This document shows positions 1 through 20,796 of a stretch of 64,000 nt of DNA, piece after piece (position 1 is the stretch's first letter; each line of letters starts with the position of its first letter). Below the pieces are notes generated by a model, which was not told where the DNA came from, ran no database searches, and saw nothing but the letters and a program-made list of their open reading frames with translations. The stretch comes from Fidelibacterota bacterium. Lineage in GTDB: Bacteria > Pseudomonadota > Alphaproteobacteria > Rhodospirillales > Rhodospirillaceae. The stretch spans positions 642 to 64,641 of the forward strand of contig CAMDOZ010000003.1 in the NCBI GenBank assembly GCA_945903705.1, written 5' to 3'. Both the position numbers and the translations under genes were made by a program.

Positions 1-597
1 GACTTTCACTGCTCGGTGCTCGATCTCGGCCGCTGGCTCCGGCCGCGGCTGTCGGCCTTTCCAAACCACGGCGCGGTGCTTCAGGCCGATCCCGGGCACC
101 GCGATGAATGCCGGCGCAAATACCTTGCCGCGGCGCCAGGCCGGCGCCTTGTCGGCCTCTCCTGGCGAAGCGTGACACCGGAGATGTCCCACCAGAAAGG
201 CCGACCCCTTGCCGCTTTCCACCCGCTGTTAGCCGCCGAAAAATTAACCTTTATTAATTTACAGTATGGGGATGTGCGCGCTGAAGTAGAGGCGCTCCCA
301 GTCGCGTATAAATCGAATATTATCATTGATTCTGAAATAGATAGCCTCAAAGACCTGGATGGCTTCGCAGCCCAGGTGGCCGCTCTGGATGCCGTCGTGA
401 CCATCAGCAACACGACGGCCCACTTTGCGGGTGCGCTCGGCGTGCCGACCTGCCTGTGTCTCGCGCAGGCCCATAAGCAGCTCTGGTATTGGTTTGCCCG
501 GGGTCAATACAGCCCCTGGTATCGGTCGATTCGGATTCATCGGCGAATCCCCGGAGAGGGATTCGCCGAGATCAAGGAGATCCTTGAGAATTGCTGA
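1..597 (+). CDS. C-terminal part of a glycosyltransferase family 9-like (heptosyltransferase-fold) protein; 5' end lies outside the window
   Basis: Frame 1 is open from base 1 to TGA 595-597. Motif ISNTTAHFAGALGVPTCL resembles the GT9 sugar-nucleotide binding motif (DSGPMHLAAALGxP). No start codon can be assigned in the window. Confidence 0.6.
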   Translation, partial: DFHCSVLDLGRWLRPRLSAFPNHGAVLQADPGHRDECRRKYLAAAPGRRLVGLSWRSVTPEMSHQKGRPLAAFHPLLAAEKLTFINLQYGDVRAEVEALPVAYKSNIIIDSEIDSLKDLDGFAAQVAALDAVVTISNTTAHFAGALGVPTCLCLAQAHKQLWYWFARGQYSPWYRSIRIHRRIPGEGFAEIKEILENC

Positions 598-774
598 CAT
601 CCCGGCCTCGCATAGCGCGTAGCCAATCGTCAGTTCCCGTCAGTAGAGGTTGAGCGGCGATCAGGATCACTGCTTACAATGGGGCGGCGTACACTTTTTT
701 TTTAACGCGTCCATGCAGGCCCCGGTTTGCGCTAAAAAATCGCGCCGAAGGGGCCTAAATCGAGGTTGAATGGC

Positions 775-803
775 TTGACATTAGGGCAGCGCCAGAGTGA
801 TAT
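775..803 (+). promoter_or_regulatory. Candidate sigma70-type promoter for the S/T-rich secreted protein gene
   Basis: Perfect -35 TTGACA at 775-780, then a 17-nt spacer, then a weak -10-like TGATAT at 798-803, about 95 nt upstream of ATG 897. Sequence match only. Confidence 0.3.
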
Positions 804-896
804 GGCGATGCGCTGACGGGCGCCAGAAGTTTGTGGCGGCTCTTTGCCGTTGCGAACTATGAACCAGATCTGAAACCTTAAGGGGATCCCAAAACT

Positions 897-2447
897 ATGA
901 ATAAACAACAGTTATACACCTTTGGCGGCGCACTGCTCGCGTCGACCGCGCTCACGGGAGCGGCGAACGCCCTCACGTGGGGCAAATCTGTCAGCGGGTC
1001 GCTGACCCTCAGCACCAGCGCAATCAGCATCACCAACACGCTGTTCTCGACGACTGCTTCGACGGCCAACACCGTCGTCATCTCGGCGAACGGTGCCAAC
1101 CGCGTCGCTGCGCGCTTCGCCAACGTCTACAACTCCACCACGGTGCCGAGCACCGGCTTCTCCATCGAAATGTCTCCGACGGGCGCCACGTTTGGCAACG
1201 CCAGCTTAGAGTCCGCCAAGTTCCTGATCGTCGGCTCGCATGGCACGACCTTCCAGGCGACGACTTCGGCGTCCACTATGTGCTCCAACGCGGTCGGTTT
1301 CGCCACGCAGTTCGTGCTCAACGGCTGCACCGCGGGTGACGTCACCTCCGGCGGCGGCCTCAACATGTCGATGGCCATCGGCGGCGTGCTGTTCAGCGGC
1401 GTGACTTTCTCCAACGCCTCGGGTCTCGCCACTGCCGGCAGCTCGATCCAGATGACCGGTCGTGTCTACAACACCGCGACCTCGGGCAACTTCGAAGCGG
1501 CCGCTACCGGCAACTCGATCACCTCCGCTGCTCCGCTCGCCATAACGGCGGGCGCTCGTGCGAACGTGACCGTGAGTGCGACCACGACTCCGCTGGCGTT
1601 CACCTCGCTATCGTCCACGAACACCGGGGTTACCACCGCGACGTTGACCATGGATCTCACTTTGATCGTGCTCACCGGCACGGGCACGTACCGCGACGAT
1701 CTGACCACGATCTCGACTGCGGCTAGCGAAATCTCGAGCACCCGCATCACGGTGACCAGCGCCATCCTCTCCAGCGGCGCTGTTCATAACGTGTTCGTGC
1801 AGCACAGTGCGACCTCGCGCGTTAACAGCTTGACGGCTGCTAACTTCTCGGGCGGCACGGTGACGTTCGTTGTCGACAGCGCTACGACCACCTCGTACAT
1901 GGTGTCGATCGCGTTCAACGGCACGACCGCCATCCCGGCCGCTGCCCAGGGCACGACCACCATCACGTTCGGTGTTGGAGCCGGCAACGCCCAGGCGGTC
2001 ACTGGGACCTCGACTGGTGCTGCCGGTACCGCTCAGGGTGGCTTCCGCGCCGAAGTGAATATGTTCGGTGCTTCGAACGCCGCTCCGTACAGTTCGTATC
2101 TGCGCATCCACAACAACGGCGGCGTCGCCGGTACTGTGAGCATCACGATCCGTAACGACGCTCATGACTCGGGCGCGCAGCTCGGTTCAGCGTTCTCCAC
2201 GGCCGCGATCCAGCCGGGTGGAACGATGCAGCTGTCGGCTGCGGAAATGGAAGGCTCTGCGACTTCGACGAAGCTGCCTTCTGGCGGTGCTAACATCGCT
2301 GCGGCGAGCCGCACGGGTGCTTACACCATCCAGGCGACCGGCCCGATCGTCGGTTACGTGCAGCACATCCTGTTCAACGGTTCGTCGGTTGCCGACCTGT
2401 CGGCGTTCCGTAACGGCGGCGTCACGACCAACAACGCGTCTCCGTAA
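897..2447 (+). CDS. Secreted Thr/Ser/Ala/Gly-rich protein of unknown family (S-layer-like or adhesin-like candidate)
   Basis: 516-aa ORF. N-terminal signal peptide MNKQQLYTFGGALLASTALTGAANA with an AxA cleavage site. Very few charged residues. GC3-biased codons. GGGGA purine tract (883-887) about 9 nt upstream of the ATG as a possible weak RBS. Strong terminator immediately downstream. Confidence 0.85.
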   Translation: MNKQQLYTFGGALLASTALTGAANALTWGKSVSGSLTLSTSAISITNTLFSTTASTANTVVISANGANRVAARFANVYNSTTVPSTGFSIEMSPTGATFGNASLESAKFLIVGSHGTTFQATTSASTMCSNAVGFATQFVLNGCTAGDVTSGGGLNMSMAIGGVLFSGVTFSNASGLATAGSSIQMTGRVYNTATSGNFEAAATGNSITSAAPLAITAGARANVTVSATTTPLAFTSLSSTNTGVTTATLTMDLTLIVLTGTGTYRDDLTTISTAASEISSTRITVTSAILSSGAVHNVFVQHSATSRVNSLTAANFSGGTVTFVVDSATTTSYMVSIAFNGTTAIPAAAQGTTTITFGVGAGNAQAVTGTSTGAAGTAQGGFRAEVNMFGASNAAPYSSYLRIHNNGGVAGTVSITIRNDAHDSGAQLGSAFSTAAIQPGGTMQLSAAEMEGSATSTKLPSGGANIAAASRTGAYTIQATGPIVGYVQHILFNGSSVADLSAFRNGGVTTNNASP

Positions 2448-2484
2448 TCGCTACACTAAACCGGTTCGCCGGTTTGGAGATCGA

Positions 2485-2517
2485 GGGAGGGTGAGCAATC
2501 ACCCTCCCTTTTTCTTT
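2485..2517 (+). terminator. Rho-independent terminator after the S/T-rich protein gene
   Basis: Perfect 10-bp stem GGGAGGGTGA (2485-2494) / TCACCCTCCC (2499-2508), GCAA loop, followed by TTTTTCTTT. Confidence 0.85.
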
Positions 2518-2645: not shown

Positions 2646-3860
2646 ATGCTTCAATCTTTTCAATACGAGGCGGTGGACGGCGCCGGACGCGTTCTGACCG
2701 GACGCCTAGACGCAGCGGGTGAGCGCGACGCGCAACGCGCCCTGGAAGGCCAGGGGCTAACCGTCGTCAGCCTCGCCGGCGCAAAGGCACAAGCCGCAAA
2801 GAGCGGCGTTTTCGGCTTCCAACGCGGGGTGAGCGCGCAGGACCGCATCTTGGCCTTGAAGCAGCTTGCACTGCTGCTAAAGGCGGGCGTCCCGCTTGTG
2901 CAAGGGATCGGCACTCTCAAGAATCAGGCCACCCACCCGATCCTTGCGGAAGCCTTCACCAGCATGGAAAAGCGCCTGCGGACCGGCGACACCTTTTCGA
3001 ACGCCCTTGCCTTAGCGCTGCCCTCGCTCCCCGCTTACGTAAACCAACTGGCCGCTTCCGGCGAAGCCATTGGCCACCTGGGTCAGGCCCTGGACGACGC
3101 CGCGACGCAAATGGCCTACGACCGCCAGGTGCGCCAGGACATTCGCAATGCCTTGACCTATCCGTCGATTCTCATTGTTGCCGGCGTCACCGCCGTCCTC
3201 TTTATCTTCATTGTCGTCGTCCCGCGATTTTCCGCCATGGTCGCGAATGCCAAGGAACCACTCCCGTGGATCTCGGCCGTCGTGATCAAGACAGGCATGT
3301 TCCTCAGCGCCAACAAGCTGCTCCTGTTTGCCGCCGTCGCGGGCGCCGTCTGGTTCGCCTGGTCGGTCTTTAAGAGCCCCAAGCGCCGAAGCCAGATGCA
3401 TGAGGTCCTGGGCGGCCTCCCGCTCATTGGACTCTGGCTGAACGAAGCTGAAGTCGCCCGCTGGGCGTCGATGCTCGGCACGATGCTCGCCAACGGCGTC
3501 GACCTGATCAAAGGCCTGCAGCTTGCCAGGGACGGTGTGAATCTTTCTGGCCTTCGCGACCGCCTCGATCAGGCGACGAAACTGGTCAGATCGGGACAAT
3601 CGCTGTCGTCGGCCATCGCGAGCCAACAGGCCTTCTCCGATACGGCCCTCAGCCTTATCCAGGTCGGAGAGGAATCGGGCGAATTGCCGACGATGCTAAA
3701 GTCGCTCGCCGCTCTCTACGAGGATACGGCGCGCCAGAGAATGAAGCAGTTCCTGCTGTTCCTCGAGCCATGCGCCATTCTGTTCATCGGAATCGTGGTC
3801 GGTGGTATCGTTGCAGCCATTATGTTAGCAATCACATCCGTCAATCAGGTGGCTCTCTAA
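2646..3860 (+). CDS. gspF: Type II secretion system inner-membrane platform protein GspF
   Basis: 404 aa with GspF/PilC-type duplicated domain architecture, three hydrophobic segments and the motif GEESGELPTML. First gene of the gsp operon. Confidence 0.9.
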   Translation: MLQSFQYEAVDGAGRVLTGRLDAAGERDAQRALEGQGLTVVSLAGAKAQAAKSGVFGFQRGVSAQDRILALKQLALLLKAGVPLVQGIGTLKNQATHPILAEAFTSMEKRLRTGDTFSNALALALPSLPAYVNQLAASGEAIGHLGQALDDAATQMAYDRQVRQDIRNALTYPSILIVAGVTAVLFIFIVVVPRFSAMVANAKEPLPWISAVVIKTGMFLSANKLLLFAAVAGAVWFAWSVFKSPKRRSQMHEVLGGLPLIGLWLNEAEVARWASMLGTMLANGVDLIKGLQLARDGVNLSGLRDRLDQATKLVRSGQSLSSAIASQQAFSDTALSLIQVGEESGELPTMLKSLAALYEDTARQRMKQFLLFLEPCAILFIGIVVGGIVAAIMLAITSVNQVAL

Positions 3861-4345
3861 TGCCGAACGCCGTTGAAATCCGCCGCGCCCCTGCGGTGGC
3901 GGCCGCCCTTCAGAAGGGCTTCACCCTCCTCGAAATGCTGGTGGTGCTTGTCATCATCGGCCTTCTGGCCGGCCTTGTCGGTCCTCAGCTGATGGGCCGG
4001 GTCGATACATCCCGCCAGACCGCCGCGGACACCCAGAGTCGAATGTTGAAGAGCGCCCTCGATACGATGCGGCTCGACATCGCCCGCTATCCCACCAAGG
4101 AAGAAGGCCTCGTCATGTTGGTGAACGCGCCCGCGGACGAGCGCGTGGCGCGGAAATGGCGCGGGCCCTATCTCTCCGAATCGTTGCCCGCGGACCCTTG
4201 GGGGAATCCGTACCAATACGAGCCGATTTCATCGACCGTGGTCGCCCTTTACAGCCTCGGCGCCGACGGAGAACCGGGCGGCGAGGACATCAACTCCGAT
4301 GTCGGCCTCCTGCCGAAGTCGGCAGCCGCCAATGCAGCGCCCTAA
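3860..4345 (+). CDS. gspG: Type II secretion major pseudopilin GspG
   Basis: ATG overlaps the gspF stop (TAATG). Prepilin motif KG/FTLLEMLVVLVIIGLLAGLV. GspG-like core: WRGPYL, DPWGNPYQY, LYSLGADGEPGGE. Confidence 0.9.
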   Translation: MPNAVEIRRAPAVAAALQKGFTLLEMLVVLVIIGLLAGLVGPQLMGRVDTSRQTAADTQSRMLKSALDTMRLDIARYPTKEEGLVMLVNAPADERVARKWRGPYLSESLPADPWGNPYQYEPISSTVVALYSLGADGEPGGEDINSDVGLLPKSAAANAAP

Positions 4346-4868
4346 GAAAGCGAGAAACCGGGCGACGGGAGAGCGTGGCTTCACGTTGCTTGAGATTGTC
4401 GTTGTCCTCGTCATCGTTGCGATGACCGGAGCGATCGTCTTTCCGCGACTGACGACGATGGCGGCCAGTTTTGAATTCGCCTCGCAGCGCGATAGTTTTG
4501 AACAGGCTCTGAACGGCTTGACGTATCGGGCCTACCGGGACAATGACGACAAGACCCTGCAAGGGTCTTACAGCGCCGCCGGCCGCGACATCGAGGCAAA
4601 GCAACCGCGTCGTGAGCCCGGCACGACGCTACCGCCGGAAATGCGTGTACGGTCGCTGGCCGCCAATTCGCGCGAGCATCTCCCCCCTGTCACGACAAGC
4701 TATGCGGTGCTTCCCCTGCCTCAAGGATGGGAAATGGTGATCCAAGACCCCATTTACTTCCGCGGATCGGGATATTGCAGCGGCGGTACCGTCGAACTTT
4801 TTGTCGGACGCCTTCAATATACCTACAGGCTGCAGCCACCGCTGTGCCGCGCCGAATTGGTGGAATGA
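4332..4868 (+). CDS. gspH: Minor pseudopilin, GspH-like by position and size
   Basis: Prepilin N-terminal cleavage/methylation motif RG/FTLLEIVVVLVIV. 178 aa. Overlaps the gspG 3' end. An alternative start at 4299 is possible. Confidence 0.7.
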   Translation: MQRPKKARNRATGERGFTLLEIVVVLVIVAMTGAIVFPRLTTMAASFEFASQRDSFEQALNGLTYRAYRDNDDKTLQGSYSAAGRDIEAKQPRREPGTTLPPEMRVRSLAANSREHLPPVTTSYAVLPLPQGWEMVIQDPIYFRGSGYCSGGTVELFVGRLQYTYRLQPPLCRAELVE

Positions 4869-4871
4869 GCG

Positions 4872-5369
4872 ATGGTCCGGAGGCCAACCGCTGGATTCAC
4901 TCTTCTCGAAGCGATCGTCGCACTGACGGTGATGGCGCTTGCTTTGATACCCTTGATCACATTCATCGCGCAGTCGGCCGACCAATTGACTCGCGCGGCG
5001 GAGGTCAACGAGCGCAGCCTGACCGCACAATCAGTGATTGCCCTGATGGAGCCGGTCAATCCCATGGCCGAGCCCGAAGGGAGCCTACCTCTCGACGATG
5101 AAGTCGAGGTGTCCTGGCGCGCCGAAGCGATTGCGCCGCCGTCCGAAGGGGCGATCCTTGGGACTCTGCTGAACGGCTACCGTATAGGATTCTACGGCGT
5201 AACAGTGGCGGTGAGCCGCAACCGAGAGCCGTGGTTCGACTTTACCATGCGTAAGGTAGGCTATCAGAATATGCGATCCGCTGGCGCGTTTTCAGGGGAC
5301 CCGTCAGGGGGCATGGGACCAGGAAGCATGGGACCAGGAGGCATGGGACCAGGAGGCATGGGACCATGA
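4872..5369 (+). CDS. gspI: Minor pseudopilin, GspI-like, with a C-terminal (G/S)MGPG repeat tail
   Basis: Motif AG/FTLLEAIVALTV. 165 aa. Starts 3 nt after the upstream stop. C-terminus is GGMGPGSMGPGGMGPGGMGP. Confidence 0.7.
   Translation: MVRRPTAGFTLLEAIVALTVMALALIPLITFIAQSADQLTRAAEVNERSLTAQSVIALMEPVNPMAEPEGSLPLDDEVEVSWRAEAIAPPSEGAILGTLLNGYRIGFYGVTVAVSRNREPWFDFTMRKVGYQNMRSAGAFSGDPSGGMGPGSMGPGGMGPGGMGP
5311..5366 (+). repeat. 15-bp in-frame tandem repeat (about 3.7 copies) at the 3' end of the GspI-like gene
   Basis: GCATGGGACCAGGA(A/G) repeated at 5311, 5326 and 5341, with a partial copy at 5356. The last copy carries the ATGA stop/start overlap with the next gene. Confidence 0.9.
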
Positions 5370-5977
5370 GCCGCGGCTTTACGCTCCTCGAAGCCCTAGT
5401 GGTGCTCGTCATCACTGCCCTCATCTCCGTCGTGCTCGTCCAGGGGCTGGGTCTTCTTCTGGGGGCGCGCACCAGCGTGCAGAACAGACTCGTCGAGGTC
5501 GACGAAGCCGTTATCGAGCAAAGTCTTTTTTTGGAGCCTTTGCGGGGCGTCGTTCCCGACTATAACGAGCGGCCGCATACTTTCGTAGGCGAAGTCAAAC
5601 GCCTGCATGGGATGACGACGCGCCCCCTGCAAGGGCGCTCGGGAACACCGGTGCCATTTACCCTGACGATCAGCTTCGATCCTTCGCGCGACCAGAGCAC
5701 TCTCATGTATCAGGAAGACAACGCCCCGCCTCTTCCGCTCGGATCTTGGCAAGGCGAGACGGGGACCTTCGCCTACCGCAACATGACGGGCGCGTGGCGG
5801 GAAGCCTGGCCGCCCGAAGACGATCCGCAGGCGCCGCAGACGCCATGGCTGATCCGGTTCGAGCGAGGAACAGGGTTTCCCAAAAACCTGGTCGCGAGCG
5901 TCAACGGCACCCATCAACGTCCCTTGCGCTTTCGCGATACGCCTTTTGGCGTCGACTCCTTTACGGCCCCCCGCTAG
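5366..5977 (+). CDS. gspJ: Minor pseudopilin, GspJ-like
   Basis: Motif MSRG/FTLLEALVVLVITAL. 203 aa. ATGA overlap with the upstream gene. Confidence 0.7.
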   Translation: MSRGFTLLEALVVLVITALISVVLVQGLGLLLGARTSVQNRLVEVDEAVIEQSLFLEPLRGVVPDYNERPHTFVGEVKRLHGMTTRPLQGRSGTPVPFTLTISFDPSRDQSTLMYQEDNAPPLPLGSWQGETGTFAYRNMTGAWREAWPPEDDPQAPQTPWLIRFERGTGFPKNLVASVNGTHQRPLRFRDTPFGVDSFTAPR

Positions 5978-7299: not shown

Positions 7300-8281
7300 C
7301 TGGATCCTCAGCCGCCGCTTCGTGCGGCAGAACGTCTTTGAAGTTTCCGAGAGCCTGCCCGAATCGAAACGCAAGCTGGCGCTCTCCCTCTTGGTGCGCA
7401 AGTGGTCGCCGTTTGTGTCGAGCCAATTTGCCGCGCAATGGGTCGGACACCGTGCCTGCGTATATGCCTGGGACGGTGACGCGGTTGCCACAGCCATTAC
7501 AGCGGCCGGCGAAAGCCCCCAACGATGCACCATTTGGCCCGAAACATTTTTCCGCGCACCCCTGCAGGACGGCATCCGTCTTGCACAGATGTGCGATGGC
7601 GTCGAAGGGCAGGTCTGGAGAAGCGGCTTGCTGGTCGCCACGCGTTGGTGGCCGGCCTCTCCAGCACCGCGCGACTGGGCAGGGTTCTTGCGCGCGGCCG
7701 GGATTGACCTCAGCCAAGCTTCGTTCGACGTGCCCGCGGCCGTGGAAAGCGAAATCCTCGCGCTTCCTTGGACGGTCGTCAGCGCTCCCGTTACCGATTT
7801 ATGGAGCCTGCTTCAGAACGAACGCGCCGCCGCAATTGCCGCAACGGTGGTTGCCGTACCATTTCTCTATTACCTGACGCAGTCGGCCGTGCTCCTGGCG
7901 GGAACGATGCGCGTCGAGGCAGCTATTGCCGATCTAACCGCGGCGAACCAGACCATTCGTACCGACCGGACGGCCGCCTTTACCAATCTCGAAAATGTCG
8001 AAACCTACCTTGGCCTTGAAAACTTTCCGTCGCAGTTCGAGACCATGAACGTGATCACCGGCTTGCTTCGCGAAAGCAAAGTCTCGCTGGCGGAATGGAA
8101 CTTCGACACCGGAAATCTGCAACTTGTCATACAAGCCGACCGCCCGCTCGAAGCGCCCTTCTTCATCGAAATGTTCGAAAAGAGCGACCATTTCTCGAAT
8201 GTGAGCGCCACCGTTGGAAATCAACAGCGAGAACTTCGCTTGACCATGTCGGTCGAACCGCGGCAATGGCCGACGTCATGA
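7163..8281 (+). CDS. GspL-like T2SS assembly protein (bitopic: cytoplasmic domain, one TM segment, periplasmic domain)
   Basis: Position after gspK. About 230-aa N-terminal domain, TM segment AAAIAATVVAVPFLYYLTQSAVLLAG, about 120-aa C-terminal domain. AGGTGGA lies before ATG 7163. GTG 7136 and GTG 7322 are alternative starts. Confidence 0.55.
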   Translation: MLSESLRSTAGRLTGSIRSSLSQPPKRFIQSTTQLLHLPGSDRRPNWILSRRFVRQNVFEVSESLPESKRKLALSLLVRKWSPFVSSQFAAQWVGHRACVYAWDGDAVATAITAAGESPQRCTIWPETFFRAPLQDGIRLAQMCDGVEGQVWRSGLLVATRWWPASPAPRDWAGFLRAAGIDLSQASFDVPAAVESEILALPWTVVSAPVTDLWSLLQNERAAAIAATVVAVPFLYYLTQSAVLLAGTMRVEAAIADLTAANQTIRTDRTAAFTNLENVETYLGLENFPSQFETMNVITGLLRESKVSLAEWNFDTGNLQLVIQADRPLEAPFFIEMFEKSDHFSNVSATVGNQQRELRLTMSVEPRQWPTS

Positions 8282-8922
8282 TGAAATCTTTCCCGACGCT
8301 TCAGAAGTTGCTGGACCGCCTGCGCGCCGAGTCGCGCAGTAGGATCGGCCATGACATTGTGCTGACCGATCGCCTCAAGGCCATGCTGTCCGTTGCCGTC
8401 GCGCTCGTCGTGCTTGCGGCTCTGATCGGAATGCACCAGACGGTCTCGTCGTTCGAACGCGATTACGAACGCGTACAGATCGACAAGGCGCGTTTGGAGG
8501 CCCAGATCAAAGCTGGCGGCTGGCAAGAGCGAAAGCAGCAGAGCCAAGTCCTAAAATCTCTCTTGGAGGAACGGCTCTGGGCCGCGCAGACCCCGGGGCT
8601 TGCCGACGCAGGCTTCGAAAGGTGGCTGCGTGACCGCATGTCTCCGCATAAGCTGGAGCCGATCGCGCAGATTCAAGTTCGGCGCGTTCCGCTCGTGCGG
8701 CAGGTGCAACCGGGCGAACAGCCAACCCCGCTCTCAACCGTTCAGCGCATGACGGCGAAGCTGATCCTTCCGTTCGAGAGTGCGGGACTATCGCACTTCT
8801 TGGCAGACATCGCCGAGGCGGATAAGGCCGTGGTTGTCGATCGTTTGATCGTGCGCGCGGGACGAAATGCACGTATCGAGATGGACGTGTCCGCGTTCTA
8901 CCGTTCTTCCGAACGGAATTGA
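8278..8922 (+). CDS. GspM-like T2SS protein (N-terminal TM anchor, periplasmic domain)
   Basis: ATG overlaps the upstream stop (ATGATGA). TM segment LKAMLSVAVALVVLAALIG near the N-terminus. Size and position fit GspM. No strong sequence motif. Confidence 0.55.
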   Translation: MMKSFPTLQKLLDRLRAESRSRIGHDIVLTDRLKAMLSVAVALVVLAALIGMHQTVSSFERDYERVQIDKARLEAQIKAGGWQERKQQSQVLKSLLEERLWAAQTPGLADAGFERWLRDRMSPHKLEPIAQIQVRRVPLVRQVQPGEQPTPLSTVQRMTAKLILPFESAGLSHFLADIAEADKAVVVDRLIVRAGRNARIEMDVSAFYRSSERN

Positions 8923-8934
8923 GGAGCCTCGCGG

Positions 8935-9453
8935 GTGGATCGTATTCTGACGCAGATCTTGGAGAGGCTTGGCGCTCTTCGGCCCTACGCGACCCATCTC
9001 GGCGCGTTGGGAATCGCCATTCTTTTCGGTTTGATCGTCGCGGTATTTAAGGTTTCGGGCAGCCCTCCTGCCGTGGACACGGCTGACCGCTGGCCGTTTC
9101 CGCAATGGGCGCCATTCCGCGCGGGCCCGCAGCGGGAAGTGCTCGCGCGGAGCACCCTATGGGCAGAAGATCCGACAAAAGCAAAAGTGGTCGTCGAAAA
9201 GAAAGTGGAAGGGCCGCCTTGGCGCTTCATCGGTACTTTTCAGGAAGGCGATACACGCATGGCAGTCATCGAACTTGATCAGGGAAAGCGCATTCAGCGC
9301 GTTGGCCCCGGTCAACCGCTGCCGAACGGCGCGTTGATCAAGACGATCGACACGAGTGTCCTCACCTATGACGAGAATGGCATCGAAAAGGCCCTGAAGC
9401 TCTTCGGCCTGACAAAAACTGACAACCTAGCGGCTGGAACTGGAAAGAACTGA
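8935..9453 (+). CDS. GspC/PilP-like secretin-interacting protein (TM anchor plus HR-type beta domain)
   Basis: GTG start. TM segment LGALGIAILFGLIVAVF. C-terminal WRFIGTFQEGDTRMAVIELDQGKRIQRVGPGQPLPNGALIKTIDTSVLTY resembles the GspC HR / PilP fold pattern. Lies immediately upstream of the secretin. Confidence 0.55.
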   Translation: MDRILTQILERLGALRPYATHLGALGIAILFGLIVAVFKVSGSPPAVDTADRWPFPQWAPFRAGPQREVLARSTLWAEDPTKAKVVVEKKVEGPPWRFIGTFQEGDTRMAVIELDQGKRIQRVGPGQPLPNGALIKTIDTSVLTYDENGIEKALKLFGLTKTDNLAAGTGKN

Positions 9454-9457
9454 GCGT

Positions 9458-11593
9458 ATGAAAAAATCATCGCAGAAGCGTCAACTGCTTACCGCTTGCC
9501 TCGCGATCGGAGGAGCCATGGTAATTCTGGCGAGCTGCTCGTCCCGGGTACCTTCGAGAATACCGCCTCCGTTGCCCGTGCCAAAGGCCGCCGATAGGGC
9601 CGGATTTACTGTTGCTGAAGGATCGGGGGAAACCGCGGGCCCCACGGAGATGAAAGTGACGGCTGGGCCTACGGTTCCACTCGGCAAGGGGACGACCGAG
9701 CCACTACTTTCCTCGGCCCTCCCTCACCTCACGGGTGAACCGATCAGTGTCAACTTCGACGGCATTCGCCTGCCCGCCTTCATCAATACTGTATTCGGCG
9801 AACTCTTAAAGCTTACCTTCGAAATCGACAGCACCGTGGCGGCGCGCGATCAAATGGTGACTCTGCGTACGGCCGGACCGCCCCTGTCACGCGACGAATT
9901 CTTTGGTCTCGTAGCCGAAGTTCTCAAGAACTACGGCATCAGCATCGTTTATTCGAACAACGTGTATCGGATCGTGGAGTCCGCAACCGTCAAGAAACCA
10001 ATTCCGCGTATCGTACGCACGCGCACGGCGTCGAATGTGCCGGCTGACTTGCGCCCGATATTCTATTTCCAGACCGTGCGAGCCATTTCAACCCAAACGA
10101 TGATGAGCTGGCTAAACCTGATCATGGGCGATCGGGTTACGCCGATGCCCTTGCTGGGCGCCAGCGGAATTGTACTGCTGGGGAGCCCGTCGGACGTGGA
10201 GGCGGCGATAGAAGTCATGGAAACGCTCGATCAGCCGTTTCTGGCCGGCAGCCAAAGTCTCAAAATTTCGCCGGCGTTCTGGAGCGCGCAGAAACTTGCA
10301 GAGCAACTCGCGAGTATTTTGACGGCGGAGGGTTATAGCATCGCGTTGGGTGGGCAGGCGGCGAGCTCGATCAAGATGCTCCCCGTCGAGGCCTTGAACG
10401 TCATCATCGTCTTCGGAACGTCCTCTGAAAGCCTGCAACATCTCTTGCAGTGGGCCACCGAACTCGATCAGCCAAGTCAAAAAATCGGGACCCAAGGCGT
10501 CTACTATCACCAAGTCCTCAACACGAAGGCGTCGGAAATCGCGACCACGGTCGGCTCAGTCCTGGGCGTGGGCGGCATAGGCGGCGCCCAGCAGCCGGCC
10601 AGCGGCGGAGTGACCTTGGCGACTGACTTACCTGCGACCGCACAACCAACGACGGCCACAGGAGGCGCGCGGGGCTCGCAGCGCCTTATCGTCGATGAGC
10701 CTCGCAACGGGATCCTCTTCGTCGGTACCGCCGAAGAGTTCGCGCAGTTCAAGGCACTTGCCGTCCAAATGGATCGAGCGCCCTTGGAAGTCCTGATCGA
10801 AGCGACGATAGCCGAAGTGACGCTGAGAGACAGTGAAGATCTTGGCATCGTACTGGACTATGACGACGGAAGAGCCACAGCGCCGAATCGAACCGTCGTT
10901 CAAGCCGACGAAGGCGGCATATTCTTCAGCCTCATCCGCGACCGCGCGTCCATCCTGGCCCGCGTCAACGCCCTCGCCGACTTCAATCGCCTCCAGGTCC
11001 TGTCGAGCCCGCGCATCGTCACGAGTAGCGGCAAGCAAGCCGCCATCAACGTGGGAACGCAGGTCCCCATTATCACGGCCCAGGAATCCTCGAGTGGTAC
11101 GGTTGGCGGCAATACGTCGATTCTGCAGTCGATTCAGTACCGGACAACCGGCGTGTCCCTCAGTATCGAGCCCACCATCAATTCGAACCGGCGGGTCGAG
11201 CTGACGGTGCAGCAGGAGGTGAGCGCCGCGCAGGAAAACAACCTGTCGTCCGTCCAGAGTCCGGTGATCATCAACCGTTCGATCAGCACATCGTTATCGC
11301 TGAACGACGGTGAAACCGTCCTGCTGGGCGGCATGATTTCAGAGAACTTCAGCGCAGGCCATACAGGAGTTCCATATTTGAAGGACATCCCACTGCTCGG
11401 CAATCTGTTCAAGTCGGGTTCGGAATCTGTCAATCGAACGGAATTGATCGTTCTGATTACGCCTTATATTATCGACGGACCCGAAGGAGCGCGGCAAGTA
11501 CGCGACGCCTTCCGCGGCAAACTTGGTGAATGGGCGCAACCGCTGGCCGAACCGGCGCCGGCCGCGGTCCCCGTCGCTTCACCTCAACAATAG
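9458..11593 (+). CDS. gspD: Type II secretion secretin GspD with a lipoprotein signal peptide (liposecretin-like)
   Basis: 711 aa with N0/N1-type domains. Secretin signature: VPYLKDIPLLGNLFK, RTELIVLITPYII. N-terminal lipobox ILAS-C at about residues 23-27. Confidence 0.92.
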   Translation: MKKSSQKRQLLTACLAIGGAMVILASCSSRVPSRIPPPLPVPKAADRAGFTVAEGSGETAGPTEMKVTAGPTVPLGKGTTEPLLSSALPHLTGEPISVNFDGIRLPAFINTVFGELLKLTFEIDSTVAARDQMVTLRTAGPPLSRDEFFGLVAEVLKNYGISIVYSNNVYRIVESATVKKPIPRIVRTRTASNVPADLRPIFYFQTVRAISTQTMMSWLNLIMGDRVTPMPLLGASGIVLLGSPSDVEAAIEVMETLDQPFLAGSQSLKISPAFWSAQKLAEQLASILTAEGYSIALGGQAASSIKMLPVEALNVIIVFGTSSESLQHLLQWATELDQPSQKIGTQGVYYHQVLNTKASEIATTVGSVLGVGGIGGAQQPASGGVTLATDLPATAQPTTATGGARGSQRLIVDEPRNGILFVGTAEEFAQFKALAVQMDRAPLEVLIEATIAEVTLRDSEDLGIVLDYDDGRATAPNRTVVQADEGGIFFSLIRDRASILARVNALADFNRLQVLSSPRIVTSSGKQAAINVGTQVPIITAQESSSGTVGGNTSILQSIQYRTTGVSLSIEPTINSNRRVELTVQQEVSAAQENNLSSVQSPVIINRSISTSLSLNDGETVLLGGMISENFSAGHTGVPYLKDIPLLGNLFKSGSESVNRTELIVLITPYIIDGPEGARQVRDAFRGKLGEWAQPLAEPAPAAVPVASPQQ

Positions 11594-11600
11594 GTTACAG

Positions 11601-12686
11601 ATGTTGAATTTACTTTCTCGCACGCTTCTTGCATTCGCCTTGCTTGTCGTATCCGCGGCTCATGGAGCGGAAGTCGCCCCGTTGCCGCGATTTACGCCAG
11701 ACGATGTGGAACAACTCACCATCGCCCAGCTGGACACGCGCACCGCAACGGGAGATTTGAAGGCCCAAGCCGAGCTTGGAGCGCGCTACGCGCGCGGCGC
11801 CGGGGTCACGGTCGACCTAAAGAAGGCGGTGTCGCTGTTCGAAGCTGGCGCAAAGAGAAACGGAGCGAACGCGCAATACTATCTTGGCACGGCCTACTCT
11901 ATGGGCGTCGGCGTGAAGCAGGATCCGAAGCAAGCGGCACGGTGGTTTGGGAAAGCCGCCGCGCAAGGGCATGCCGGCGCGCAATACTCGCTCGGCGTCA
12001 TGATGGCTACGGGAGAAGGCGGCCTTAAGGCCGACCCCAAGAAAGCGGCTGATCACGTCCTGAAGTCCGCCGAACAGGGTTTCGTCCTGGCCGCCTTCAG
12101 GATGGCTCAGCTTCATATAGCGGGCTTGGGAGTCGCACGAGACACTGAACGAGCGGCCGATTGGTATCGGCGCATCCTCAAGACCCAAGACCACCCTCCC
12201 TCGACCGCCGGCCTCGTCGTCCTCATCGAAACGAGAGAGGCGACATGGCAGCCTGGGGATCCCATTAACCAGCCCCCACCCTTGGCTAAGGAGGAGGCTC
12301 CCGCACAGGTCGCCGAAATCGCGCCCCCCGTTATGACGGGGCCCATCACGGCGGCTGCCCCCGACACGACCTTAAGTCTCTTGCCCGACGAGCAGGAGAC
12401 CATGACGTCATTCAAGACAGAACAAGGGCCGACGATCGAGGCGAGGACGAGAGCGGGCGCCCTTACGCTTTTCAGCACCTCGGACAAACCGCTTTCTTGC
12501 CAGATCGGCGTCACGTTCAGTTACCTTGAGAAGGACGGCGTGAGAACGCCGGGCACTTTCCTCTGCTTTCAGGCGGCCATGCGGGTCGGCCAGAAGGTGC
12601 AGGTTTGCGACGTCGTGAATCGCAACTTCGTGCAAACAAAAGTCGAAAAGATTGAGCTCACGAAATGCAGCACGCTCACGCCGTAA
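11601..12686 (+). CDS. Secreted Sel1-repeat (TPR-like) protein with a C-terminal domain of unknown family
   Basis: Signal peptide MLNLLSRTLLAFALLVVSAAHGA. At least four Sel1-type repeats (AQAELGARYARGAGV, AQYYLGTAYSMGVGV, AQYSLGVMMATGEGG, AAFRMAQLHIAGLGV). Starts 8 nt after the gspD stop. Confidence 0.85.
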   Translation: MLNLLSRTLLAFALLVVSAAHGAEVAPLPRFTPDDVEQLTIAQLDTRTATGDLKAQAELGARYARGAGVTVDLKKAVSLFEAGAKRNGANAQYYLGTAYSMGVGVKQDPKQAARWFGKAAAQGHAGAQYSLGVMMATGEGGLKADPKKAADHVLKSAEQGFVLAAFRMAQLHIAGLGVARDTERAADWYRRILKTQDHPPSTAGLVVLIETREATWQPGDPINQPPPLAKEEAPAQVAEIAPPVMTGPITAAAPDTTLSLLPDEQETMTSFKTEQGPTIEARTRAGALTLFSTSDKPLSCQIGVTFSYLEKDGVRTPGTFLCFQAAMRVGQKVQVCDVVNRNFVQTKVEKIELTKCSTLTP

Positions 12687-12706
12687 CGACTTCTGCGATT
12701 TGACCG

Positions 12707-12937
12707 ATGTCCAACCAATTGATCATCACACTGCTGGTGCTCGCGGCCGAAGTCGGATTGTTCGTACTTTGCGTCATTGTTTCACGCAGGCCGATTGATC
12801 CGCTGAAACCGCGATTGATCCCCTACAACATCATCATGATCTTTCTCGCAGTCGCGATCTTCGCGACTGCGGCCCACGTCATCAGCCTCTTGACCGGTCA
12901 GCAGTTGATGCCGCGTCAGCGCAAAGGGATGCGTTAG
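12707..12937 (+). CDS. Small two-TM membrane protein, unknown function
   Basis: 76 aa with two hydrophobic helices and a basic C-terminus. Followed by a long hairpin. Confidence 0.55.
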   Translation: MSNQLIITLLVLAAEVGLFVLCVIVSRRPIDPLKPRLIPYNIIMIFLAVAIFATAAHVISLLTGQQLMPRQRKGMR

Positions 12938-12950
12938 CCGAGCGATTCCC

Positions 12951-12997
12951 GGCACACGATCGGATCGGATTGAATCAATCCGATCCGACCGTGTGCC
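12951..12997. terminator. Long near-perfect palindrome (22-nt arms, 1 mismatch); probable terminator of the gsp-side transcription unit
   Basis: GGCACACGATCGGATCGGATTG / AAT loop / CAATCCGATCCGACCGTGTGCC, followed by GTTTTAG. Confidence 0.55.
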
Positions 12998-13126
12998 GTT
13001 TTAGATAATTAGGGCGCGATTTAACGAAAAACCGCTGCACACTTCCCGCCTTCGCTAAAGCTTCGGCGGGCCTTGAGTACATAGGTCCTCCGAAGCCGCA
13101 AGGCGAAGGAGGATTGCTATCGCGCC

Positions 13127-13738
13127 CTATCGTACTGGGACATTGGGTTGGACGGATTTCGTAGCTGTGGTCCACCCCATGGCCGTATCGAGAATGGCGT
13201 GCAAGACGGCCTGGTGCCCGGTTTCGACAAAGCCGTAAACCGCCGAATTGACGAAGAAGTTCACATCACCCAGCCGGCGAAGATCATTGTCCGGAGAAAA
13301 GCCGCTGAGCGTGATCACTTCGCACTTGAGGTTCGCCGCGGCGCGAGCGGCGTTCAGGATGTTCTTCGATCCGCCGGAGCTCGAGATCGCGATGAGCACG
13401 TCGCCGGCGAAAGCCTGCATCTCAACCTGCTTGGCAAAGACCTGATCGTATCCCAGATCGTTGCCAAGGCACGTCAACGACGAGGCGTCGTTGAATGTCA
13501 CGGCGCGGACGCCGCCGTTCTTCGCAAAATCGATCGCAAGGTGTCCTGCTATCCCGGCCGAGCCGCCATTGCCCACGAACATCACCTTGCCCGTGCCCCT
13601 CGCGACACGTCGCATGGAGTCGTGCACGCGCACGATACCGGCGTCCACGGCAAGTGCCGCGCCCTGCCGATCGGTCACAGTGACGGACTTCAGCGTGTCG
13701 AAGAAAGTTTGTACGTAATCGGCATAAGAATTTGACAT
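13127..13738 (-). CDS. gmhA: SIS-domain sugar-phosphate isomerase, GmhA (sedoheptulose-7-phosphate isomerase) family
   Basis: Motifs KVMFVGNGGSAGIAGHLAIDF and DVLIAISSSGGSKNIL are typical of the GmhA/DiaA SIS family. About 203 aa. Confidence 0.8.
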   Translation of the reverse strand: MSNSYADYVQTFFDTLKSVTVTDRQGAALAVDAGIVRVHDSMRRVARGTGKVMFVGNGGSAGIAGHLAIDFAKNGGVRAVTFNDASSLTCLGNDLGYDQVFAKQVEMQAFAGDVLIAISSSGGSKNILNAARAAANLKCEVITLSGFSPDNDLRRLGDVNFFVNSAVYGFVETGHQAVLHAILDTAMGWTTATKSVQPNVPVR

Positions 13739-20792: not shown

Positions 20793-20796
20793 GGAC

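What the first reader, a model, noticed from the sequence alone, without database searches (positions are those of the whole stretch)
1..13738. Candidate self-contained surface-protein export module: GT9-like enzyme, S/T-rich cargo, T2SS without an ATPase, Sel1 protein, GmhA-like isomerase
Seen in the sequence: a 516-aa signal-peptide protein made largely of Thr/Ser/Ala/Gly (897-2447) sits directly upstream of a ten-gene T2SS operon (2646-11593), on the same strand. One flank carries a GT9 (heptosyltransferase-fold) C-terminal domain (1-597). The other flank carries a GmhA-family sedoheptulose-7-phosphate isomerase (13127-13738). Established knowledge: T2SS loci often sit beside their substrates. 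Aeromonas S-layer subunits need dedicated PulD/GspE-type components. Autotransporter heptosyltransferases (AAH/TibC) decorate Ser residues of adhesins with heptose made through GmhA. Inference: the block may synthesise, glycosylate and export a surface-array or adhesin protein. The sequence does not prove the functional link between the four parts.
Basis: partly seen in the sequence, partly recalled or inferred. Interest (0 to 1): 0.75.

Follow-up and report, generated by a model that had tools for sequence, protein, structure and literature searches.

The report
Surface-protein glycosylation and secretion island
An uncultured group of Rhodospirillaceae-like bacteria carries a conserved gene island that pairs a fast-evolving, apparently abundant surface protein with its own type II secretion machine and a battery of probable protein-glycosylating enzymes; it resembles the Aeromonas S-layer export cluster but has new parts and no local motor ATPase.

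Summary
Window 1-13738 carries the end of a TPR+GT9-fold glycosyltransferase, a 516-aa signal-peptide protein rich in Thr/Ser/Ala/Gly, ten T2SS genes (gspF-G-H-I-J-K-L-M-N/C-D), a Sel1 protein and a GmhA-like SIS gene on the minus strand.

The parts are linked. In 13 other lineages that cover the junction, all metagenome-assembled and mostly labelled Rhodospirillaceae, the cargo homologue (31-53% identity) sits directly upstream of gspF. Five or six TPR-GT9-like paralogues and a GT8-like protein lie upstream. In five lineages with downstream sequence, Sel1, the small membrane protein and the SIS gene follow.

The cargo is a separate transcription unit with a conserved TTGACA promoter and a conserved terminator. 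It is predicted all-beta. It evolves far faster than the machinery (dN/dS about 0.5 against 0.04-0.13), and assemblies break at it.

The module is not self-contained. No GspE ATPase, prepilin peptidase or further heptose-pathway genes lie in the window or in any fetched locus. The island starts upstream of the window.

Best reading: a dedicated Xps/Sps-type T2SS exports a probably O-glycosylated, S-layer-like protein. The closest precedent is Aeromonas spsEFGHIJKLM-orf2-spsD-vapA. I rate it a new variant of a known kind. Function is inferred.

The parts
1..597 (+). 3' end (last 198 codons) of a 571-aa cytoplasmic TPR + GT9-fold glycosyltransferase. It is the cargo-proximal member of an array of at least 6 such domains that continues upstream of the window.
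   Evidence: L034 6237-7952 is the full gene. The AF2 model of a homologue's domain best matches GT9 structures 3tov, 1psw, WaaC and TibC. There is a weak PF01075 hit in a paralogue. There is no signal peptide. 5-6 GT-domain copies lie upstream in every locus.
775..891 (+). Conserved promoter and 5' leader of the cargo gene: invariant TTGACA (775-780), 17-nt spacer, TGATAT (798-803), invariant GCGCTGACGGGCGC (810-823), conserved leader with SD AAGGGGA (880-886).
   Evidence: Alignment of 8 loci. Coordinates.
897..2447 (+). Cargo: a 516-aa Sec-signal protein, all-beta (about four Ig-like or beta-sandwich domains), T/S/A/G-rich, nearly uncharged, with 2 conserved Cys. It is the fastest-evolving gene of the island.
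   Evidence: GC3 is 0.81, among the highest in the window and above every gsp gene.
2483..2510 (+). Intrinsic terminator hairpin (12-bp stem plus T-run) between the cargo gene and gspF.
   Evidence: Conserved in 12 of 12 loci, with compensatory changes.
2646..3860 (+). GspF platform protein (404 aa).
   Evidence: PF00482 E 3e-51. TIGR02120 287 bits, below the 424 cut-off.
3860..4345 (+). GspG major pseudopilin (161 aa), with a G|FTLLE motif.
   Evidence: PF08334 E 4e-32. Motif shown.
4299..5977 (+). Minor pseudopilins GspH-like (4299-4868), GspI-like (4872-5369) and GspJ-like (5366-5977), all with G|FTLLE.
   Evidence: N_methyl hits. Weak GspH and XpsI hits. Motifs shown.
6166..7299 (+). GspK (377 aa).
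   Evidence: PF21687 and PF03934. NF037980 E 2e-10.
7268..8281 (+). GspL-like protein (337 aa; cytoplasmic domain, one TM, periplasmic domain). Assigned by position and topology only.
   Evidence: No family or PDB hit. Conserved at 31-77% identity in all loci. dN/dS 0.04.
8266..8922 (+). GspM-like protein (218 aa).
   Evidence: NF040576 GspM/XpsM E 1.7e-4. PF10741 weak in orthologues.
8935..9453 (+). 172-aa GspC/XpsN-like protein: one TM plus a short periplasmic domain, no PDZ.
   Evidence: Position between M and D. Weak HofP (PilP-like) hits at E 0.004-0.007. The best PDB profile hit is GspC 7oio at E 0.33, which is not significant.
9458..11593 (+). GspD secretin (711 aa from the ATG at 9458), with a lipoprotein signal peptide (ILAS|C): a predicted liposecretin.
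   Evidence: PF00263 E 2e-46. TIGR02517 293 bits, best among the secretin models. The lipobox is conserved in 5 loci.
11601..12686 (+). Periplasmic Sel1-repeat protein (361 aa: signal peptide, four Sel1 repeats, and a C-terminal Cys-containing extension that only the closest relatives have).
   Evidence: PF08238 E 7e-28. Follows gspD in all loci.
12707..12937 (+). Conserved 76-aa protein with two predicted TM helices, function unknown.
   Evidence: Present beside the SIS gene in L020, L022, L023, L026 and L027, and after Sel1 in L004.
13127..13738 (-). GmhA-like SIS-domain sugar-phosphate isomerase (203 aa) at the island border, convergent with the island.
   Evidence: SIS_2. TIGR00441 92 bits, below the 209 cut-off. 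Best PDB hits are all GmhA, 5by2 at E 1e-20. It keeps its place beside the island in 5 other lineages.

Best explanation
This is the right-hand two thirds of a conserved chromosomal island of at least 21 kb, found in an uncultured Rhodospirillaceae-like clade. The island makes, probably decorates, and exports one abundant, hypervariable cell-surface protein.

Proposed mechanism, step by step:
1. The 516-aa cargo is transcribed on its own from a strong, conserved sigma-70-type promoter and ends at a strong terminator. The features are shown in the sequence; the expression level is inferred.
2. In the cytoplasm, a set of TPR + GT9-fold enzymes binds the nascent cargo through their TPR domains. 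They have the same architecture as the flagellin O-glycosyltransferase FlmG and the same fold as the adhesin heptosyltransferases TibC/AAH. Together with a small GT8-like enzyme they add sugars to some of the cargo's many Ser/Thr residues. The border GmhA-like isomerase possibly supplies a heptose precursor. This step is inferred.
3. The cargo crosses the inner membrane by Sec, folds in the periplasm into beta-sandwich domains, and forms one disulfide. The signal peptide and the two conserved Cys are shown; the rest is inferred.
4. A dedicated Xps/Sps-order T2SS pushes the cargo through the outer membrane. It consists of the GspF platform, GspG-K pseudopilins, GspL/M, a short GspC/N and a self-piloting lipoprotein secretin, helped by a periplasmic Sel1 protein. 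The ATPase and the prepilin peptidase are encoded elsewhere in the genome. This step is inferred from synteny and from the Aeromonas precedent.
5. Outside the cell the cargo stays on the surface as an S-layer-like coat or a major surface antigen. This would explain its diversifying evolution. This step is inferred.
For: Linkage:
- The cargo homologue lies directly upstream of gspF in all 13 other lineages that cover the junction, down to 31% identity (35% over a partial match in the most distant locus).
- 5-6 GT9-like domains plus a 224-aa GT8-like protein lie upstream in every locus with upstream sequence.
- Sel1, the 76-aa protein and the SIS gene lie downstream in 5 of 5 other lineages with downstream sequence.

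Machinery under selection:
- dN/dS is 0.04-0.13 for gspF/G/J/K/L/M/N/D.
- T2SS identity comes from Pfam and NCBIfam hits.

Cargo as a surface protein:
- Sec signal peptide, about 28% Ser+Thr, about 6% charged residues.
- AF2 model with pLDDT 83.5, all-beta. Its best PDB matches are Ig-like adhesin and pilin domains.
- dN/dS is 0.53. dS is low, which fits strong codon bias. GC3 is 0.81.
- It is 47% identical where GspF is 81% identical.
- Assemblies break at or inside the gene: L017-L019, and 1.6-kb contigs that hold only this gene.

Own transcription unit:
- Invariant TTGACA-17-TGATAT promoter and conserved leader.
- Terminator conserved in 12 of 12 loci with compensatory changes.

Glycosyltransferases:
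- GT9 fold.
- TPR N-terminal domains and no signal peptides.
- FlmG precedent for a TPR + GT-B protein O-glycosyltransferase (PMC7591256).

Precedent for a dedicated T2SS next to an S-layer gene with the same gene order and similar gene sizes: Aeromonas hydrophila AH-1 spsE-F-G-H-I-J-K-L-M-orf2(166 aa)-spsD-vapA(469 aa) (PMC4413209).
Against: - No experiment exists and no cultured carrier was found. All 12 genome hits are MAGs.
- No GspE-type ATPase or prepilin peptidase lies in the window or in about 540 kb of fetched loci. Energy coupling is therefore unexplained, and I could not show that these genes exist elsewhere in the genome.
- The cargo matches no known S-layer family. Its structural hits are generic (TM about 0.2).
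- Ser/Thr are spread evenly through beta-strand domains rather than in mucin-like tracts. The composition alone therefore does not indicate glycosylation.
- GT9 enzymes are classically LPS-core enzymes.
- The GT domain and the SIS protein both score below curated family cut-offs.
- No kinase, phosphatase or nucleotidyltransferase of a heptose pathway is nearby.
- The SIS gene sits at the island/housekeeping border. I found no genome lacking the island against which to test which side it belongs to.
Confidence: 0.5

Rival explanations
1. The T2SS exports the cargo, but the TPR-GT9-like array, the GT8-like protein and the GmhA-like isomerase do not glycosylate it. Instead they build or modify a cell-envelope glycan, such as LPS core, O-antigen or capsule, that anchors the surface protein. 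In Aeromonas the S-layer genes sit inside the O-antigen cluster.
For: - GT9 structures that match best are LPS heptosyltransferases.
- GmhA is classically an LPS-core enzyme.
- The Aeromonas sps/vapA genes are embedded in the O11-antigen cluster (PMC4413209).
- The cargo's Ser/Thr are not in obvious glycosylation tracts.
Against: - Every GT9-like domain is fused to a long TPR protein-binding domain. This is the FlmG/OGT design for protein substrates.
- There are 5-7 paralogues per island.
- No polysaccharide polymerase, flippase or ABC exporter, lipid-carrier transferase or nucleotide-sugar pathway genes lie in the island.
- The cargo-proximal GT is always directly beside the cargo.
Confidence: 0.2
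2. The cargo is not a lattice-forming S-layer protein. It is a released or loosely attached T2SS substrate, for example an adhesin or a binding protein, or a monomeric major surface antigen.
For: - There is no similarity to known S-layer families.
- Structural matches are to adhesin or pilin Ig-like domains.
- Its C-terminal ~105-aa domain recurs as four tandem copies in large secreted enzymes. This suggests a binding or anchoring module rather than a lattice domain.
Against: The single dedicated gene, the strong promoter and terminator, the codon bias, the extreme lack of charge, the hypervariability and the Aeromonas parallel all fit an abundant coat protein. None of these proves a lattice.
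Confidence: 0.25
3. The gsp cluster is a decaying or non-functional remnant, because it lost gspE. Its adjacency to the cargo has no functional meaning.
For: No ATPase gene lies in the window or in any related locus.
Against: - All ten genes are intact in every lineage.
- dN/dS is 0.04-0.13.
- GspF is 46-90% identical across lineages whose cargo has diverged to 31-53%.
- Scattered T2SS genes are known elsewhere, for example Legionella lsp loci (my own knowledge, not tested here).
Confidence: 0.04
4. The GmhA-like SIS gene is a housekeeping neighbour, part of the apaG-folE-argF block or of LPS synthesis, and is not part of the module.
For: - It is on the opposite strand, at the border with housekeeping genes.
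- It is as conserved as ApaG and FolE (63-82% against 80-89%).
- No other heptose genes are nearby.
Against: It stays next to the island side even when a Cys/Met-PLP gene separates it from apaG, and when an extra TPR-GT gene separates it from Sel1. It always neighbours the conserved 76-81-aa island gene.
Confidence: 0.4

Closest known systems
Aeromonas S-layer secretion cluster (spsE-F-G-H-I-J-K-L-M-orf2-spsD) with vapA/ahsA
   Same: A dedicated T2SS gene set sits next to the structural gene of a ~470-520-aa surface-array protein. The gene order is the same (F..M, a ~170-aa orf, then D) and the gene sizes are similar (PMC4413209; window).
   Different: Here there is no spsE/gspE. The cargo lies upstream, where gspE would be, rather than downstream of D. 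The secretin is a predicted lipoprotein. A Sel1 protein, a 76-aa membrane protein and an array of TPR-GT9-like genes are attached. I could not test sequence similarity to the Sps proteins, because no Aeromonas sequences were available.
Xanthomonas Xps-type T2SS (xpsE-F-G-H-I-J-K-L-M-N-D)
   Same: The gene order has N (a GspC homologue) and D at the end. The best weak NCBIfam hits for I and M are the Xps models.
   Different: E is absent. All components score below the equivalog cut-offs. The Xps gene order is from my own knowledge.
TibC/TibA and AAH/AIDA-I (GT9 protein heptosyltransferases of autotransporter adhesins)
   Same: GT9-fold enzymes encoded beside a Sec-exported Ser/Thr-rich surface protein. 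TibC is among the structural matches (E 4e-5). A GmhA-like gene is nearby.
   Different: The enzymes here carry long N-terminal TPR domains and come in 5-7 paralogues. The substrate is a T2SS candidate, not an autotransporter. The iron-binding, dodecameric features of TibC were not examined, and the sugar is unknown.
FlmG (Caulobacter flagellin O-glycosyltransferase)
   Same: Modular cytoplasmic enzyme of about 570-600 aa: an N-terminal TPR substrate-binding domain plus a C-terminal GT-B domain (PMC7591256).
   Different: FlmG modifies flagellins exported by the flagellar T3SS and uses pseudaminic acid. Here there are no flagellar or nonulosonic-acid genes, and the presumed substrate has a Sec signal peptide. 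Homology to FlmG was not tested.
HxcQ-type liposecretins
   Same: The secretin has a lipoprotein signal peptide and no separate pilotin gene.
   Different: Lipidation is predicted from the lipobox only. The role of the Sel1 protein as a possible assembly factor is unknown.
GmhA (sedoheptulose-7-phosphate isomerase)
   Same: All the best PDB matches are GmhA (E 1e-20). The GNGGS, GND and SSSGxS motifs align.
   Different: It scores 92 bits against a 209-bit equivalog cut-off. In the alignment, the position where Neisseria GmhA (5i01) has the Glu of HFAAE is Asp, and the Gln of the C-terminal 'iQE' motif in 5by2 is Glu. Which of these positions are catalytic or metal-binding is from my own knowledge of GmhA. 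NCBI names the orthologues only 'SIS domain-containing protein'.

Membership tests
Type II secretion system (T2SS) | GspF-family inner-membrane platform protein | tested here: met
   PF00482 E 3e-51. The best NCBIfam hit is TIGR02120 GspF at 287 bits, below the equivalog cut-off of 424.
Type II secretion system (T2SS) | GspD secretin with N0 and secretin domains | tested here: met
   PF00263, PF03958 and PF21305. TIGR02517 gspD scores 293 bits, ahead of PilQ, MshL and SctC.
Type II secretion system (T2SS) | Major pseudopilin GspG plus minor pseudopilins H, I, J and K with a prepilin motif | tested here: met
   PF08334 E 4e-32 for G. G|FTLLE is present in G, H, I and J. K has PF21687/PF03934 and lacks E5.
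Type II secretion system (T2SS) | GspE secretion ATPase | tested here: not met
   There is no TFF-type Walker A motif in the 64-kb window or in 36 fetched loci. The gene calls of all loci show none. Presence elsewhere in the genome could not be tested.
Type II secretion system (T2SS) | Prepilin peptidase (GspO/PilD) | tested here: not met
   None was found in the window's Pfam annotation or by the motif scan. The G|FTLLE motifs require one, so it must be encoded elsewhere.
Type II secretion system (T2SS) | GspL, GspM and GspC assembly-platform partners | tested here: inconclusive
   M gives a weak NF040576 hit at E 1.7e-4. The C/N-like protein gives weak HofP hits and GspC 7oio at E 0.33. L has no hit and is assigned by position and topology only.
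Glycosyltransferase family 9 (heptosyltransferase-like, GT-B) | GT-B fold most similar to GT9 structures | tested here: met
   The AF2 model (pLDDT 92) matches 3tov at E 2e-9 and TM 0.62. 1psw, WaaC and TibC follow.
Glycosyltransferase family 9 (heptosyltransferase-like, GT-B) | Sequence match above the Pfam PF01075 gathering score | tested here: not met
   The window fragment gives no hit. One paralogue scores 19.9 bits against a cut-off of 22. The profile search of PDB gives only 1psw at E 0.24.
Glycosyltransferase family 9 (heptosyltransferase-like, GT-B) | Uses ADP-heptose as donor | not testable with these tools
   This needs enzymology or glycan MS.
FlmG/OGT-like modular protein O-glycosyltransferases | Cytoplasmic protein with an N-terminal TPR domain and a C-terminal GT-B domain | tested here: met
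   TPR Pfam hits and OGT/SPINDLY TPR matches. GT-B model. No signal peptides.
FlmG/OGT-like modular protein O-glycosyltransferases | Binds and glycosylates a protein substrate | not testable with these tools
   Inferred only from adjacency to the cargo in every locus.
S-layer (surface array) protein | Abundant exported protein encoded by a single strongly expressed gene | tested here: inconclusive
   Conserved consensus -35 element, conserved terminator, GC3 of 0.81 and low dS are indirect indicators. No expression data were available.
S-layer (surface array) protein | Forms a two-dimensional lattice on the cell surface | not testable with these tools
   This needs EM of a cultured or enriched carrier.
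GmhA (TIGR00441 equivalog) | Score above the equivalog cut-off | tested here: not met
   91.7 bits against 209.45.
GmhA (TIGR00441 equivalog) | SIS fold with GmhA as the closest solved relatives | tested here: met
   The 13 best PDB hits are all phosphoheptose isomerases, at E 1e-20 to 7e-16. DiaA follows at 1e-13.
Sel1-repeat proteins | Sel1 repeats above the Pfam threshold | tested here: met
   PF08238, 96 bits, 4 repeats.

The most novel reading that the evidence does not exclude
A previously undescribed envelope system: a family of FlmG-like TPR-GT9 protein glycosyltransferases, 5-7 paralogues per genome, multiply O-glycosylates a Sec-dependent surface-layer protein in the cytoplasm. The protein is then exported by a dedicated T2SS that has permanently lost its own ATPase gene. 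The T2SS either borrows the ATPase and prepilin peptidase of another type IV filament system or is energised in some other way. Sel1 and a 76-aa membrane protein act as new accessory factors.
Probability: 0.25. Interest if true: 0.8.

Novelty: new variant of a known kind. Interest (0 to 1): 0.6.

Why it matters
If the inferred function is right, three things follow.

- It would be the second lineage, after Aeromonas, with a T2SS dedicated to a surface-array protein, and the first in Alphaproteobacteria.
- It would link a T2SS substrate to a large battery of cytoplasmic TPR-GT9 protein glycosyltransferases. That would extend the TibC/AAH and FlmG paradigms to a new export route.
- The consistent absence of gspE and gspO from a strongly conserved ten-gene T2SS cluster offers a natural test case. 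It could show how far T2SS components can be shared in trans between type IV filament machines.

The hypervariable cargo is also a plausible phage-receptor or strain-typing locus for an uncultured, apparently widespread group of bacteria. All of this is inference from sequence. No carrier has been cultured.

Tried and rejected
Searches that gave little or nothing:
- Pfam and NCBIfam on the 198-aa GT fragment and on the cargo gave nothing.
- A profile of the GT domain against PDB sequences gave only TPR hits and WaaF at E 0.24. The fold comparison was needed to place the domain.
- Profiles of the GspL-like and 172-aa proteins against PDB gave nothing significant.
- A profile of the 224-aa protein against PDB gave nothing. 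Only weak GT8 Pfam hits were found.
- The first related-loci run, with the 42-sequence cargo alignment, failed for lack of conserved stretches. It worked with 13 closer sequences.
- The metagenome scan with the Sel1 profile returned only 6 loci, two of them unrelated Sel1 proteins (L024, L025).
- Rfam and tRNA scans of the window found nothing.
- A literature search for S-layer + T2SS + alphaproteobacteria + glycosyltransferase found no paper.
- The listing of cluster members gave no organism names for the four-copy-domain proteins.

Ideas considered and rejected:
- The cargo as an outer-membrane beta-barrel or porin. The model is made of beta-sandwich domains, and the protein ends in ...NNASP rather than an aromatic residue.
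- The cargo's S/T-richness as low-complexity or mucin-like sequence. The family aligns end to end, and S/T are evenly spread.
- The ~1.6-kb cargo-only contigs as transcripts. They start 35-43 nt before the ATG and end 3 nt after the stop codon, inside the conserved flanks, before the terminator about 35 nt downstream that a transcript would reach. They are better explained as assembly breaks around a strain-variable gene.

Full report
**1. What is in the window**

- 1-597 is an open reading frame that is cut by the window start.
- 897-2447 encodes a 516-aa protein with an N-terminal signal peptide (MNKQQLYTFGGALLASTALTGAANA). Its composition is unusual: T 15.9%, S 12.6%, A 15.5%, G 11.4%, and only about 6% charged residues.
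- 2646-11593 holds ten co-directional genes:
  - GspF (PF00482, E 3e-51).
  - GspG (PF08334, E 4e-32).
  - Three further pseudopilins with G|FTLLE motifs (H-, I- and J-like).
  - GspK.
  - A 337-aa protein with GspL-like topology.
  - A weak GspM match (NF040576, E 1.7e-4).
  - A 172-aa single-TM protein with only faint PilP/GspC-like signals.
  - The secretin GspD (PF00263, E 2e-46; the best NCBIfam model is TIGR02517).
- 11601-12686 is a signal-peptide Sel1-repeat protein.
- 13127-13738, on the minus strand, is a SIS-domain protein whose closest solved relatives are all GmhA.

Every T2SS component scores below NCBIfam's equivalog cut-offs, so this is a divergent T2SS.

The rest of the window (14-64 kb) is housekeeping: apaG, folE, hslO, argF, argD, lptF/G, etfAB, argH, lysA, ftsEX, nrd and others. 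It holds no secretion ATPase, no prepilin peptidase and no heptose-pathway genes. A six-frame motif scan found no TFF-type Walker A box in the 64 kb.

**2. The left flank**

The window is part of a 111.5-kb metagenome contig. Locus L034, from that contig, is 99.99% identical to the window and reaches 7355 bp further upstream. It shows that ORF 1-597 is the end of a 571-aa protein. Before it lie TPR proteins of 690, 544 and 576 aa, then a 224-aa protein, then a 1019-aa TPR protein.

Each of these TPR proteins has N-terminal TPR repeats and a C-terminal domain of about 300 aa. In the orthologous 1014-aa protein of L001, two copies of the C-terminal domain were counted.

The sequence evidence for GT9 is weak:
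- The window fragment gives no hit.
- One paralogue scores PF01075 at E 5e-4.
- The profile search of PDB gives WaaF at E 0.24.
- JGI names some homologues 'ADP-heptose:LPS heptosyltransferase'.

The structural evidence is clear. An AlphaFold model of the full domain of a 58%-identical homologue (pLDDT 92, pTM 0.91) best matches GT9 enzymes: 3tov (E 2e-9, TM 0.62), WaaF, WaaC and then TibC.

The proteins have no signal peptides, so they are cytoplasmic. This architecture, TPR plus GT-B in about 570-600 aa, is that of FlmG. FlmG binds flagellins through its TPR domain and O-glycosylates them (PMC7591256).

The 224-aa protein is the best-conserved gene of the array (70-92% identity). It gives weak GT8 hits around a DCD motif in 9 of 10 orthologues.

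**3. Are the parts linked?**

The cargo belongs to a family of full-length proteins of about 475-525 aa. There are 80 hits in the word-indexed search, and 1051 in the exhaustive representative search including domain-only matches. All are unnamed.

Twelve hits in species-representative genomes are all MAGs. Most are labelled Rhodospirillaceae bacterium, one only Proteobacteria. Two are labelled Marinimicrobia and are probably mis-binned.

In all 13 other lineages that cover the junction, the cargo gene lies directly upstream of gspF. This includes the most distant homologue (E 4e-9). The same ten gsp genes and Sel1 follow. In one lineage (L003) gspK-D are inverted to the other side but remain in the island.

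Every locus with upstream sequence has five or six GT9-like domains plus the 224-aa gene within 10 kb.

Five other lineages with sequence beyond Sel1 show this downstream order:
- Sel1.
- An optional extra TPR-GT gene.
- The 76-81-aa gene.
- The convergent SIS gene.
- Then the housekeeping genes: an optional Cys/Met-PLP gene, apaG and folE.

For the SIS gene the result is suggestive but not decisive. It always sits at the island border. I found no genome lacking the island that could show which side it belongs to.

**4. Nature of the cargo**

The AlphaFold model (pLDDT 83.5, pTM 0.72) is all-beta, with roughly four sandwich domains. PDB matches are generic Ig-like adhesin and pilin domains with low TM-scores. 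It is not a beta-barrel.

Two Cys residues (C129 and C144) are conserved in most family members. This fits periplasmic folding before T2SS transport.

Several features point to an abundant, exposed, diversifying protein.
- The gene has its own conserved promoter (invariant TTGACA, 17 nt, TGATAT). An invariant 14-mer and a conserved leader with a strong SD follow it.
- A 12-bp-stem terminator lies 36 nt after the stop codon. A terminator hairpin with a T-run is present in 12 of 12 loci, with compensatory changes in the stem.
- GC3 is 0.81, against 0.65-0.75 for the gsp genes.
- In the comparison of the window with L006, the cargo has dN/dS of about 0.53 with low dS. The gsp genes have 0.04-0.13.
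- Across lineages the cargo is 31-53% identical where GspF is 46-90% identical.
- Assemblies often break at the gene. Three MAG contigs end inside it. Many family members are known only from ~1.6-kb contigs that start 35-43 nt before the ATG and end at the stop codon, that is, at the conserved flanks.

Ser/Thr are spread evenly (18-36% per 30-residue block) rather than in tracts. The composition is therefore compatible with glycosylation but is not evidence for it.

**5. The secretion machine**

The gene order F-G-H-I-J-K-L-M-(small C/N-like)-D is the Xps order (my own knowledge). It is also exactly the order of the Aeromonas hydrophila S-layer secretion cluster, spsE-F-G-H-I-J-K-L-M-orf2(166 aa)-spsD. 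That cluster lies next to the S-layer gene vapA (469 aa) (PMC4413209). Gene sizes are also similar.

The differences are:
- There is no E gene. The cargo unit sits where gspE would be.
- The secretin has a lipoprotein signal peptide whose lipobox is conserved in five lineages. It resembles liposecretins such as HxcQ.
- The Sel1 and 76-aa genes are additions.

No ATPase motif occurs in the window or in about 540 kb of related loci.

The four pseudopilins carry classical prepilin-peptidase sites, and no peptidase gene is local. At least one essential factor must therefore be supplied in trans, which makes a trans-encoded ATPase the simplest assumption. The strong purifying selection on all ten genes argues against a decaying relic. 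I could not search the rest of these genomes, so the location of the ATPase remains open.

**6. Best explanation and rivals**

I think the island encodes production and export of a hypervariable surface (S-layer-like) protein through a dedicated T2SS (confidence about 0.8 for the cargo-T2SS link and about 0.6 for 'surface coat'). The TPR-GT9-like enzymes probably O-glycosylate the cargo in the cytoplasm before Sec export, as TibC/AAH and FlmG do for their substrates (about 0.55). Heptose as the sugar is possible but weakly supported (about 0.3). Overall confidence in the combined statement is 0.5.

The main rival is that the glycosyltransferases and the isomerase build an envelope glycan that anchors the protein. 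The embedding of the Aeromonas cluster in O-antigen genes suggests this. The TPR fusions and the absence of any polysaccharide polymerisation or export genes argue against it.

Other rivals:
- The cargo is a non-lattice adhesin or a released protein.
- The SIS gene is a mere neighbour.
- The T2SS is defunct (unlikely).

**7. Novelty and verdict**

The kind of system, a dedicated T2SS beside its surface-array substrate, is known from Aeromonas. Protein-modifying GT9 enzymes and TPR-GT-B enzymes are also known. The new elements are:
- Their combination in one conserved island.
- The multiplicity of TPR-GT9 paralogues.
- The consistent lack of gspE and gspO.
- The lipoprotein secretin with Sel1 and 76-aa partners.
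- The taxon, an uncultured alphaproteobacterial clade.

I found no paper describing it. I rate it a new variant of a known kind, with interest 0.6. Its interpretation is partly supported: the linkage holds, but 'self-contained' does not, and glycosylation, heptose and export are untested.

Noticed in passing
window 2085-2411 (cargo residues ~397-505): The cargo's conserved C-terminal ~105-aa domain has no Pfam name. It recurs as exactly four tandem copies in many large secreted multidomain proteins (FG-GAP, Vgb_lyase-type beta-propeller, GH113, reprolysin). Two such proteins lie on one 4.4-Mb contig. It may be a surface-anchoring or binding module.
   Followed up: partly
window 12707-12937 (+): A conserved 76-81-aa protein with two predicted TM helices lies between Sel1 and the SIS gene. 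It is present in every related locus that has this region, and it has no family hit.
   Followed up: partly
window 9458-9545: Starting GspD at the ATG at 9458 gives a lipoprotein signal peptide (…VILAS|C). A lipobox is conserved in four other lineages. The automatic gene calls start 20 codons later and miss it.
   Followed up: partly
window 810-823: An invariant 14-mer, GCGCTGACGGGCGC, lies immediately downstream of the cargo promoter's -10 element in all 8 aligned loci. It could be an operator or a 5'-end stabilising element.
   Followed up: no
L034 154-828 (upstream of the window); L001 3139-3813: A 224-aa protein inside the TPR-GT array is the most conserved gene of the island (70-92% identity). 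It has weak GT8 hits around a DCD motif in 9 of 10 orthologues.
   Followed up: partly
L012 and L015 (CANJEU010000031.1, CANISR010000125.1): Two MAGs labelled Candidatus Marinimicrobia carry this island with 70-86% (L012) and 49-77% (L015) protein identity of the gsp genes to the window's versions, in the range of the Rhodospirillaceae-labelled MAGs. These contigs are probably mis-binned.
   Followed up: no
window 12300-12686 (Sel1 C-terminal extension): The window's Sel1 protein has an extra C-terminal segment of about 130 aa, ending in a stretch with four Cys. The next-closest lineage (L006) shares it. The other lineages lack it, and their Sel1 proteins are about 230-250 aa.
   Followed up: no
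window 20271-21915 (-): A type III polyketide synthase (chalcone-synthase-like) lies next to an ICMT-family methyltransferase. The pair is conserved in the flank of related genomes (L026, L030), which suggests an alkylresorcinol- or pyrone-type lipid locus.
   Followed up: no
window 27689-30075 (+): A PMT_2-family (ArnT/PMT-like GT-C) membrane glycosyltransferase is followed by a PAP2 phosphatase. It is a possible lipid A or envelope modification pair, and it is unlinked to the island in the other loci.
   Followed up: no
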